Notes: generated by a model from the sequence alone, not told the origin. Positions 2,149-3,438 are shown, numbered from the stretch's first letter. The stretch is 31,048 nucleotides of DNA from Escherichia coli (GCF_003334385.1 NZ_QOWN01000054.1), one strand, 5' to 3'. Made by a program: numbers and translations.

Positions 2149-3438
2149 ATGAAAGTATTAGTGATTGGTAACGGCGGGCGCGAGCACGCGCTGGCCTGGA
2201 AAGCGGCCCAGTCGCCGCTGGTTGAGACTGTTTTTGTTGCTCCGGGTAATGCAGGCACTGCACTGGAACCCGCGCTGCAAAACGTTGCTATTGGCGTGAC
2301 CGATATCCCGGCGCTGTTGGATTTCGCACAAAACGAAAAGATTGATCTGACCATCGTCGGCCCGGAAGCGCCGCTGGTGAAAGGCGTGGTCGATACCTTC
2401 CGCGCCGCCGGGCTGAAAATCTTCGGCCCAACCGCAGGTGCGGCCCAACTGGAAGGCTCAAAAGCGTTTACCAAAGATTTCCTGGCCCGCCATAAGATCC
2501 CTACGGCGGAATACCAGAACTTCACCGAGGTAGAACCTGCGCTGGCGTATCTGCGTGAGAAAGGCGCGCCAATCGTCATTAAAGCGGACGGTCTGGCTGC
2601 CGGGAAAGGCGTTATCGTGGCGATGACGCTGGAAGAAGCGGAAGCGGCTGTTCACGATATGCTGGCGGGCAACGCTTTTGGCGACGCGGGTCATCGCATC
2701 GTTATCGAAGAGTTCCTCGATGGCGAAGAAGCGAGCTTTATCGTGATGGTGGACGGCGAGCATGTGCTGCCGATGGCTACCAGCCAGGATCACAAACGCG
2801 TAGGCGATAAAGATACCGGACCAAACACCGGCGGGATGGGCGCTTACTCCCCCGCGCCGGTAGTAACCGATGACGTTCATCAGCGCACCATGGAACGTAT
2901 TATCTGGCCAACCGTGAAAGGCATGGCGGCGGAAGGCAACACCTACACCGGTTTTCTCTACGCGGGCCTGATGATCGACAAACAGGGCAATCCGAAGGTT
3001 ATTGAATTTAACTGCCGCTTTGGCGATCCGGAAACCCAGCCGATTATGCTGCGCATGAAGTCCGATCTGGTTGAGCTCTGCCTGGCGGCCTGTGAAAGCA
3101 AACTGGACGAGAAAACGTCCGAGTGGGATGAACGCGCTTCTCTCGGCGTGGTGATGGCTGCGGGTGGATATCCGGGTGATTACCGCACCGGTGACGTGAT
3201 CCACGGCCTGCCGCTGGAAGAAGTGGCAGGCGGCAAAGTGTTCCACGCGGGCACAAAACTGGCGGATGACGAGCAGGTAGTGACCAACGGCGGGCGCGTA
3301 CTGTGCGTCACCGCGCTGGGTCATACCGTGGCAGAAGCGCAGAAACGCGCCTATGCCTTAATGACCGATATCCACTGGGACGACTGCTTCTGCCGGAAAG
3401 ATATCGGCTGGCGCGCTATCGAACGCGAGCAGAACTAA
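2149..3438 (+). CDS. purD: phosphoribosylamine-glycine ligase (GAR synthetase)
   Basis: 429-aa ORF MKVLVIGNGGREHALAWK..., ATP-grasp PurD; operon arrangement purHD. Confidence 0.97.
   Translation: MKVLVIGNGGREHALAWKAAQSPLVETVFVAPGNAGTALEPALQNVAIGVTDIPALLDFAQNEKIDLTIVGPEAPLVKGVVDTFRAAGLKIFGPTAGAAQLEGSKAFTKDFLARHKIPTAEYQNFTEVEPALAYLREKGAPIVIKADGLAAGKGVIVAMTLEEAEAAVHDMLAGNAFGDAGHRIVIEEFLDGEEASFIVMVDGEHVLPMATSQDHKRVGDKDTGPNTGGMGAYSPAPVVTDDVHQRTMERIIWPTVKGMAAEGNTYTGFLYAGLMIDKQGNPKVIEFNCRFGDPETQPIMLRMKSDLVELCLAACESKLDEKTSEWDERASLGVVMAAGGYPGDYRTGDVIHGLPLEEVAGGKVFHAGTKLADDEQVVTNGGRVLCVTALGHTVAEAQKRAYALMTDIHWDDCFCRKDIGWRAIEREQN

What the first reader, a model, noticed from the sequence alone, without database searches (positions are those of the whole stretch)
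3435..3438. Convergent purD and zraR share overlapping stop codons
The purD TAA (3436-3438) and the zraR TAG (complement of 3435-3437) overlap by 2 nt, leaving no intergenic room for terminators. Each transcript must terminate inside the other gene, so transcriptional interference or antisense overlap between the purine operon and the zinc-responsive regulator is possible.
Basis: seen in the sequence. Interest (0 to 1): 0.2.

Follow-up and report, generated by a model that had tools for sequence, protein, structure and literature searches.

The report
Overlapping purD and zraR stop codons
Two E. coli genes that face each other (purD and zraR) really do end on the same four bases, but this is an ordinary, inherited and already published arrangement. 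Its only notable detail is a likely stop signal for purD transcription hidden inside the zraR coding sequence.

Summary
Window 3435-3438 reads CTAA. The purD stop codon TAA is 3436-3438, and the zraR stop codon TAG is the complement of 3435-3437. RefSeq annotates both genes exactly this way, in K-12 MG1655 too.

It is not a chance feature of this strain. All 45 readable loci with a close zraR orthologue have purD convergent and overlapping, by 4 nt or by 11 nt. These loci include Salmonella, Citrobacter, Klebsiella, Kluyvera and Phytobacter.

It is not new either. CTAA/TTAA/CTAG/TTAG tail-to-tail overlaps were described in 2007, and that study counted 58 convergent overlaps in E. coli. A 2025 RNA-seq survey already lists "zraR-purD" as a convergent excludon.

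Both transcripts do appear to end inside the partner gene:
- Published bicyclomycin data place a Rho-dependent termination region for the zraR strand about 266 nt into purD.
- On the purD strand I found a perfect 9-10 bp GC-rich hairpin followed by a T-run at 3482-3519, inside zraR codons 415-427. Its synonymous sites are almost invariant across genera, which fits an embedded intrinsic terminator for purHD. No 3'-end data that I could reach confirm it.

Regulatory interference between the two operons has not been tested. Interest is low.

The parts
548..2137 (+). purH, the first gene of the purHD operon
   Evidence: TIGR00355 at 908 bits. RefSeq annotation gives the same coordinates.
2149..3438 (+). 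purD (phosphoribosylamine--glycine ligase). Its stop codon TAA is at 3436-3438.
   Evidence: TIGR00877 at 631 bits, full-length. RefSeq annotation.
3435..3438 (.). Shared tetranucleotide CTAA. The purD TAA (+) and the zraR TAG (-) share bases 3436-3437.
   Evidence: The CTA of the zraR stop is invariant in 33 unique orthologous sequences, and position 3438 is A in 32 and G in 1.
3435..4760 (-). zraR (sigma-54-dependent response regulator). Its stop codon TAG is the complement of 3435-3437.
   Evidence: NF007689 at 995 bits over 441/441. RefSeq annotation.
3482..3519 (+). Candidate intrinsic terminator of purHD, embedded in zraR codons 415-427. The stem is 3483-3491 (ACGGGCGGC) paired with 3504-3512 (GCCGCCCGT), plus a G.U pair between 3482 and 3513. 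The loop is 12 nt and the tail is TTTTCTCC.
   Evidence: - Folding: dG -21.9 kcal/mol, z-score -4.4, and 0 of 200 shuffles fold as well.
- Rarity: it is one of only two strong hairpin-plus-T-run sites in the 31-kb window, against 0.17 expected.
- Synonymous sites: the stem-codon wobble sites are invariant at 5 of 6, against 1 of 21 for other 4/6-fold codons (p = 4e-4).
- Pairing: 100% of stem positions pair in 33 sequences.
- Function is inferred. I found no mapped 3' end.
3110..3230 (-). Approximate Rho-dependent termination zone for read-through of the zraSR transcript, antisense to the 3' part of purD. The published peak is at window ~3169.
   Evidence: - Published data: Adams 2021 supplementary file 2 lists MG1655 4204911 (+), 'antisense purD', Rho score 4.28, p = 5.7e-8.
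- Coordinate mapping and composition: the C/G ratio peaks at 1.6-1.9 in the 60-nt windows starting at 3197 and 3167 on this strand.
- The zone boundaries are my estimate.
4757..6154 (-). zraS, the sensor kinase upstream of zraR in the same operon. It overlaps zraR by ATGA at 4757-4760.
   Evidence: NF007688 at 841 bits. RefSeq annotation. Sequence.

Best explanation
This is an ordinary, ancient, compact tail-to-tail junction between the purHD operon and the zraSR operon of Enterobacteriaceae. The two coding sequences abut so tightly that their stop codons share two bases, so each operon keeps its termination signal inside the partner's coding sequence.

**purHD strand (inferred).** Transcripts run past the purD stop into the last ~80 nt of zraR, in antisense. 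Most of them probably end at a GC-rich hairpin followed by a U-run, written into zraR codons 415-427. A C-rich tract behind the hairpin offers a Rho back-up.

**zraSR strand (published data).** Transcripts run past the zraR stop into purD in antisense and are stopped by Rho about 270 nt further on.

**Consequence.** The two mRNAs have complementary 3' ends, roughly 80 to 350 nt long. This is why RNA-seq surveys score the pair as a convergent 'excludon'. Any regulatory effect, whether through RNA polymerase collision or cleavage of double-stranded RNA, is probably small and is untested.
For: **The overlap and its conservation (shown)**
- The overlap is in the sequence and in the RefSeq annotation.
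- It is conserved, as a 4-nt or 11-nt overlap, in all 45 readable orthologous loci and in Citrobacter werkmanii.
- Exact PurD look-ups label these loci as Salmonella enterica, Citrobacter braakii, Klebsiella michiganensis, the K. pneumoniae/variicola group, Kluyvera cryocrescens, Phytobacter/Metakosakonia and E. albertii.

**Rho termination of the zraR strand (shown by others)**
- The region is bicyclomycin-sensitive. Reads without bicyclomycin (-BCM) are 74 upstream and 17 downstream; with it (+BCM) they are 172 and 169. The Rho score is 4.28 (PMC7815308).
- It maps to window ~3169, where the strand is most C-rich and G-poor.

**Overlapping RNA-seq coverage (shown by others)**
- zraR-purD appears in ExcludonFinder Table 1 (PMC12288877).

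**The embedded terminator (inferred)**
- The hairpin folds at dG -21.9 kcal/mol with z-score -4.4.
- Only two such sites exist in 31 kb. The other is the known terminator-like element downstream of rplL. Chance expectation is 0.17.
- Five of the six stem-codon wobble sites are invariant across 35 unique sequences, whereas the loop wobble sites and 20 of 21 other 4/6-fold codons vary (Fisher p = 4e-4).
- The only stem change is A to G at 3483. It keeps a G.U pair on the purD-sense RNA but would give an A/C mismatch on the zraR-sense RNA. It occurs in Salmonella-type loci, in L132 and in E. coli MS1266.
- Distant paralogues with the same GGNKSEAAR motif but no purD neighbour lack the perfect stem.
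Against: - No mapped 3' end supports the hairpin as a terminator. The curated Term-seq lists and Rho regions of Adams 2021 hold nothing on the purD strand between MG1655 4203900 and 4204999. Those lists keep only the stronger 3' ends, and purHD is repressed in rich medium, so this absence is weak evidence.
- The E. coli U-run is interrupted (UUUUCUCC), whereas most other genera have UUUUUUCC. Termination in E. coli may therefore be partial.
- The stem is invariant, so there is no compensatory covariation. The case rests on synonymous-site conservation, which codon bias or a constraint on the zraR mRNA could also produce in part.
- The Gly-Gly ... Ala-Ala motif is by nature partly self-complementary.
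Confidence: 0.7

Rival explanations
1. The overlap is a functional excludon, a regulatory device. Strong purHD transcription during purine limitation would lower ZraR (and so the zinc/envelope-stress response), or zinc-induced zraSR transcription would lower PurD. The mechanism would be head-on RNA polymerase collision or RNase III cleavage of the duplex formed by the complementary 3' ends.
For: - The pair is listed as a convergent excludon from RNA-seq (PMC12288877).
- That paper reports higher synteny for excludon pairs in general, and this pair is syntenic across at least six genera.
- Head-on collisions at convergent E. coli gene pairs have been shown to matter for termination (bioRxiv 10.1101/2022.10.23.513370).
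Against: - No experiment on this pair exists in the literature I could search.
- There is no known functional link between purine synthesis and the Zra system.
- The overlap geometry is not fixed. It is 4 nt in most genera and 11 nt in the Klebsiella pneumoniae group, which argues for compaction rather than a tuned device.
- zraR-strand coverage is low in LB: 74 reads in 800 nt.
- Both strands carry termination signals that limit the overlap to a few hundred nucleotides.
Confidence: 0.12
2. The hairpin at 3482-3519 is only a by-product of the ZraR helix-turn-helix sequence ([10 protein letters not shown]) and of codon preference. On this view purHD has no intrinsic terminator and is ended by Rho somewhere inside zraR.
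For: - GGN (Gly) and GCC (Ala) codons are naturally complementary, and distant paralogues show partial stems.
- No Term-seq 3' end is listed at the hairpin.
- The + strand just behind the hairpin is C-rich and G-poor, with C/G 3.1 at 3499-3558, which suits Rho loading.
- No covariation is seen.
Against: - Paralogues with the same motif do not form a perfect stem.
- The stem wobble sites are invariant at 5 of 6, against 1 of 21 elsewhere. Ala is GCC-GCC in the stem, while the other Ala codons nearby are mostly GCG, GCA or GCT.
- Lys416 (AAA) is invariant, and Glu415 is GAA in 31 of 35 sequences. Together these make the T-run.
- Chance expectation for such a site is 0.17 per 31 kb.
Confidence: 0.15
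3. The overlap is an annotation or ORF-calling artefact: one of the two genes really ends earlier.
For: None found. I considered it only because short overlaps sometimes come from mis-called gene ends.
Against: - Stop codons are not a matter of choice, and both reading frames are open up to these stops.
- Both proteins match their equivalog profiles to the last residues.
- The C-terminal residues are conserved across genera.
Confidence: 0.01

Closest known systems
Four-nucleotide tail-to-tail (convergent) gene overlaps, tetramers CTAA/TTAA/CTAG/TTAG (Lillo & Krakauer 2007, PMC2174442)
   Same: The geometry is exactly the same: two stop codons on opposite strands share two bases, here as CTAA. 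That paper counts 58 convergent overlaps in E. coli. In 19 of them one partner has a predicted rho-independent terminator inside the other's coding sequence, and in 2 both partners do.
   Different: Nothing essential differs. The present case adds a cross-genus view: the overlap persists but switches between 4 and 11 nt.
Convergent excludons of E. coli MG1655 (ExcludonFinder, Sanmartin et al. 2025, PMC12288877)
   Same: zraR-purD is itself an entry in their Table 1, and so is the neighbouring pair yjaH-zraP. The paper reports terminators predicted inside the partner's transcription unit for 146 of 165 pairs.
   Different: 'Excludon' in the original sense implies mutually exclusive expression. 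For this pair only overlapping coverage is documented, not a regulatory effect.
Bidirectional or collision-assisted termination at convergent gene pairs (Wang, Watters, Ju & Liu, bioRxiv 10.1101/2022.10.23.513370)
   Same: Convergent E. coli operons, with a stem-loop in the nascent RNA near the gene boundary.
   Different: - Here the hairpin lies inside a coding sequence rather than between genes.
- It has a U-run on one strand only. The zraR-sense side is followed by CAGUUAGG, so it is not a bidirectional terminator.
- The zraR strand relies on Rho.
Rho-dependent suppression of antisense read-through (Adams et al. 2021, PMC7815308)
   Same: The zraR-strand read-through into purD is one of their listed Rho termination regions, classed 'antisense'.
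   Different: None. It is a listed member of that set.

Membership tests
4-nt convergent stop-stop overlap ([CT]TA[AG]) | Two protein-coding genes on opposite strands, oriented tail to tail | tested here: met
   purD is on the + strand and zraR on the - strand, and both match full-length family profiles.
4-nt convergent stop-stop overlap ([CT]TA[AG]) | A tetramer CTAA, TTAA, CTAG or TTAG that contains both stop codons | tested here: met
   CTAA at 3435-3438. The class is defined in PMC2174442.
Convergent excludon (ExcludonFinder operational definition) | The transcript boundaries of the two genes overlap (coverage at least 50% of the gene mean) in at least 50% of transcriptomes | not testable with these tools
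   I had no RNA-seq data here. The published Table 1 lists zraR-purD (PMC12288877).
Excludon in the strict sense (mutually exclusive expression) | Expression of one gene lowers expression of its neighbour through the overlapping transcript | not testable with these tools
   I found no experiment on this pair.
Intrinsic (rho-independent) terminator | A GC-rich stem-loop immediately followed by a U-run on the transcribed strand | tested here: met
   A 9-10 bp stem, dG -21.9 kcal/mol, followed by UUUUCUCC, which is 5 U in 8. Other genera have UUUUUUCC. A custom scan finds it.
Intrinsic (rho-independent) terminator | An RNA 3' end mapped at the U-run, independent of Rho | tested here: inconclusive
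   The curated 3'-end and Rho-region tables of PMC7815308 have no entry there. Other datasets were not readable.
Intrinsic (rho-independent) terminator | The structure is conserved beyond what protein coding requires | tested here: met
   Stem wobble sites are invariant at 5 of 6, against 1 of 21 elsewhere (p = 4e-4). All stem positions pair in all 33 sequences, but without compensatory changes.
Rho-dependent terminator (zraSR read-through) | Bicyclomycin-sensitive drop in coverage | not testable with these tools
   Published: Rho score 4.28, p = 5.7e-8 at MG1655 4204911 (+).
Rho-dependent terminator (zraSR read-through) | An untranslated, C-rich and G-poor RNA stretch upstream of or at the site | tested here: met
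   The region lies after the zraR stop. C/G is 1.6-1.9 in the 60-nt windows starting at 3197 and 3167 on the - strand, which coincide with the published peak at ~3169.

The most novel reading that the evidence does not exclude
The conserved hairpin and the ~80-nt purHD 3' UTR that it defines might be more than a terminator squeezed into a coding sequence. This stable antisense 3' end would then couple purine starvation to ZraR output, or give rise to a 3'UTR-derived small RNA. The near-invariance of the zraR synonymous sites would reflect selection on that regulatory RNA.
Probability: 0.08. Interest if true: 0.45.

Novelty: already known. Interest (0 to 1): 0.13.

Why it matters
It matters little in itself. 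The overlap is annotated in every E. coli genome, belongs to a class described in 2007, and the pair is already listed as an overlapping transcription unit.

Its modest value is as a clean textbook case of how a bacterial genome packs two operons tail to tail:
- One strand ends at a terminator written into the synonymous sites of the neighbour's last codons.
- The other strand ends through Rho.
- The shared stop bases constrain evolution. A single A-to-G change at 3437 keeps the purD stop but extends ZraR by 28 residues.

Anyone who engineers or deletes zraR or purD should know that the last ~80 nt of zraR probably carry the purHD terminator.

Tried and rejected
**Database scans**
- The genome-contig scan with ZraR was swamped by sigma-54 activator paralogues, because peptides such as FGHEKGAF are family-wide. 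Only one orthologous locus was useful (Citrobacter werkmanii, L003).
- The protein search with ZraR returned only Escherichia sequences among the best 120. It was useful only for spotting length variants.
- A wobble-degenerate DNA pattern on the helix-turn-helix region, run against metagenome contigs, replaced both scans and worked.

**Search for mapped 3' ends**
- The Adams 2021 supplements have the Rho region on the zraR strand but nothing on the purD strand.
- The TERMITe supplements have no entry.
- The supplements of the 3'-UTR valves paper, Dar & Sorek 2018, Conway 2014, Gruenberger 2022 and Melamed 2016 are not held.
- Ju et al. 2019 (SEnd-seq) is not held under the id I guessed.

**Tests on the sequence**
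- The built-in terminator scan missed the hairpin because of its loop limit. The weak sites it did report inside purD and zraR (3120-3105 -, 2832-2815 -, 4088-4113 +, 4385-4398 +) are no more numerous than in shuffled sequence (4 found, 2.8 expected), so I dropped them.
- The covariation test is uninformative because the stem never varies.
- Tandem Repeats Finder does not detect the EQVR repeat in zraR.
- I rejected the annotation-artefact explanation.
- Rfam has no family at the junction.

**Literature searches**
- Searches for 'purHD terminator' and 'hydG purD' gave nothing relevant.

Full report
**1.

Window 3430-3440 reads cagaaCTAAcg. The purD ORF (2149..3438, + strand) ends in TAA at 3436-3438. 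The zraR ORF (3435..4760, - strand) ends in TAG, the reverse complement of 3435-3437. The stop codons share bases 3436-3437, and the CDS coordinates overlap by four bases.

Both genes are securely identified and full-length:
- PurD matches TIGR00877 at 631 bits, covering the whole 425-position profile.
- ZraR matches the ZraR equivalog NF007689 at 995 bits over 441/441.
- The flanking genes are purH, zraS and zraP.

RefSeq annotates exactly the same coordinates in a near-identical E. coli strain. In K-12 MG1655, zraR is 4203320..4204645 and purD is 4204642..4205931. Window 2900-4000 is identical to MG1655. Window position x corresponds to MG1655 coordinate 4208080 - x.

**2. It is inherited, not a coincidence of one strain**

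The junction region is present in 5419 of 5426 complete E. coli genomes. The 47-mer centred on the junction is found in 5420 genomes and is identical in 3709.

My first attempts to reach other genera failed. The genome scan was swamped by paralogues and the protein search returned only Escherichia. I then scanned metagenome contigs with a wobble-degenerate pattern on the ZraR helix-turn-helix region that excludes the E. coli codon. This gave 53 loci:
- 45 have a close zraR orthologue (79-97% identity) and readable downstream DNA. In all 45, purD (88-98% identity) is convergent and overlapping.
  - 28 overlap by 4 nt. All are CTAA except L132, which is CTAG.
  - 15 overlap by 11 nt (GCTAACGGCTAA or ACTAACGGCTGA). 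Here purD has shifted frame near its end and reads 7 nt further.
  - 2 have junction sequence of the 11-nt type but assembly frameshifts elsewhere.
- 6 are distant paralogues with no purD neighbour.
- 2 are cut by contig ends.

Citrobacter werkmanii also has the CTAA form. Exact look-up of the PurD proteins gives the taxa:
- 4-nt form: Salmonella enterica, Citrobacter braakii, Klebsiella michiganensis, Kluyvera cryocrescens, Phytobacter/Metakosakonia and Escherichia albertii.
- 11-nt form: the Klebsiella pneumoniae/variicola group.

The tight junction is therefore old, but its exact geometry is not fixed.

**3. Where the purHD transcript ends**

About 45 nt past the purD stop, the + strand carries ACGGGCGGC-N12-GCCGCCCGT followed by TTTCTCC (3482-3519). 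The evidence that this is a terminator is as follows.

- *Stability.* As RNA it folds at -21.9 kcal/mol, with z-score -4.4, and none of 200 shuffles folds as well.
- *Rarity.* I ran a custom scan of the whole window on both strands, asking for at least 8 perfect pairs, at least 6 G-C, a loop of 3-14 nt and at least 5 T in the next 8. It finds just two sites: this one and the element downstream of rplL, which Rfam also hits. Simulated sequence gives 0.17 sites.
- *Coding context.* The hairpin lies in zraR codons for [13 protein letters not shown], part of the helix-turn-helix domain.
- *Synonymous sites.* Across 35 unique orthologous sequences, the six stem codons (ACG GGC GGC ... GCC GCC CGT) are invariant at five of six wobble sites. 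The loop codons vary: Thr422 uses all four codons, and Asn420 uses AAC or AAT. Of the 21 other four- or six-fold degenerate codons in the last 43 codons, 20 vary (Fisher p = 4e-4). Lys416 (AAA), which makes the T-run, is also invariant.
- *The one stem change.* CGT becomes CGC, which is A to G at 3483 on the purD-sense strand. This turns an A-U pair into G.U on that RNA, but would give an A/C mismatch on the zraR mRNA. It appears in the Salmonella-type loci, in L132 and, independently, in E. coli strain MS1266.
- *Control.* Distant paralogues with the same GGNKSEAAR motif but no purD neighbour use non-complementary codons.

I conclude that this is most likely the intrinsic terminator of purHD, written into the synonymous sites of zraR. 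This conclusion is inferred, and it has clear weaknesses:
- There is no compensatory covariation, because the stem never varies.
- The E. coli T-run is interrupted (TTTTCT), whereas most other genera have TTTTTT.
- The only 3'-end tables I could read list nothing on this strand.

A C-rich, G-poor stretch just behind the hairpin (C/G 3.1) would allow Rho to catch any read-through.

**4. Where the zraSR transcript ends**

Adams et al. 2021 (PMC7815308, supplementary file 2) list a Rho termination region classed 'antisense purD'. It peaks at MG1655 4204911 on the + strand, with Rho score 4.28 and p = 5.7e-8. Reads without bicyclomycin are 74 upstream and 17 downstream; with bicyclomycin they are 172 and 169.

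This maps to window ~3169 on the - strand, 266 nt after the zraR stop. It falls exactly where that strand is most C-rich (C/G 1.6-1.9). On the zraR-sense RNA the hairpin is followed by CAGUUAGG, so it cannot terminate zraR.

**5. What was already known**

- Lillo & Krakauer 2007 (PMC2174442) describe the jump at length 4 in the distribution of convergent overlaps. [quoted passage not shown] They count 58 convergent overlaps in E. coli, and find predicted rho-independent terminators inside the partner's coding sequence in 21 of them.
- ExcludonFinder (PMC12288877, 2025) lists 'zraR-purD', and also the neighbouring 'yjaH-zraP', among 165 convergent excludons. These were called from coverage in at least 50% of 58 MG1655 transcriptomes. 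The paper reports predicted overlapping terminators for 146 of the 165.

No source shows that the overlap regulates either operon. The variable geometry (4 or 11 nt), the low zraSR read coverage in LB and the termination signals on both strands all point to compaction with bounded read-through rather than a tuned switch.

**6. A small illustration of the constraint**

The flanking bases 3435 and 3438 can change silently in both genes. The two shared bases cannot.

In one E. coli assembly (Logan SRR31191040) the tetramer is CTGA. purD keeps a stop (TGA), but the zraR TAG becomes CAG. ZraR then grows from 441 to 469 residues by reading antisense through purD, which gives an 88-nt coding overlap. 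Such variants are rare among the ZraR sequences returned.

**7. Verdict**

The feature is real, conserved, ordinary and already described. The embedded terminator with its synonymous-site constraint is a tidy detail and is worth a 3'-end check. It belongs, however, to a kind that is already known.

Noticed in passing
window 6815-6821: zraP (+, TAA at 6815-6817) and yjaH (-, TGA as the complement of 6819-6821) converge with a single base between their stop codons. The pair is also in the ExcludonFinder list. Adams 2021 list a strong Rho region 'antisense zraP' at MG1655 4201402 (+), which is window ~6678, with Rho score 17.2.
   Followed up: partly
window 4611-4634 (- strand; ZraR residues 43-50): ZraR varies in length among E. 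coli strains (437, 441 or 445 aa) through the copy number of an EQVR repeat in the receiver domain: [16 protein letters not shown] or [14 protein letters not shown]. The window has the 441-aa form. Tandem Repeats Finder does not report the repeat.
   Followed up: partly
L138 2823-2910 (E. coli assembly Logan SRR31191040); equivalent to window 3437: A natural variant has CTGA instead of CTAA. The purD stop becomes TGA and the zraR stop is lost (CAG), which gives a 469-aa ZraR and an 88-nt antisense coding overlap with purD. A second rare variant (P0001, 456 aa) has Tyr at the stop position.
   Followed up: yes
L002 3428-4196 (E. coli JP538); within window ~3830-3890: In one strain an IS1A element is inserted in zraR and splits it into two pseudogene fragments. 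The flanks are otherwise 100% identical to the window.
   Followed up: no
window 4757-4760 (- strand): zraS and zraR overlap by ATGA: the zraR start ATG shares bases with the zraS stop TGA. This is the usual co-directional 4-nt overlap associated with translational coupling.
   Followed up: no
window 27090-27151 (- strand): The hairpin-plus-T-run between rplL and rpoB (GGCTGGTGAC...GTCACCAGCC TTTTT) is the only other strong terminator-like site in the window. Rfam scores it as 'Pseudomonas sRNA P26' (RF00630, 74.5 bits).
   Followed up: partly
window 6342-6356 (+ strand): A sigma-54 promoter-like sequence, TGGCACGGAAGATGC, ends 36 nt upstream of the zraP start codon (6392). This fits the known sigma-54 dependence of zraP, but matches at this stringency are no more frequent than chance in the window (4 found, 3.0 expected).
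   Followed up: no
window 17594-17754 (+) and 11801-11901 (+): Rfam gathering-level matches: sroH sRNA between thiH and yjaZ (201 bits), and the TPP riboswitch upstream of thiC (74.8 bits). Both are expected for this E. coli region.
   Followed up: no
window 3499-3558 (+ strand): Immediately behind the candidate purHD terminator, the purD-sense strand is strongly C-rich and G-poor (C 42%, G 13%). This could be a Rho loading site that would catch read-through into zraR.
   Followed up: no
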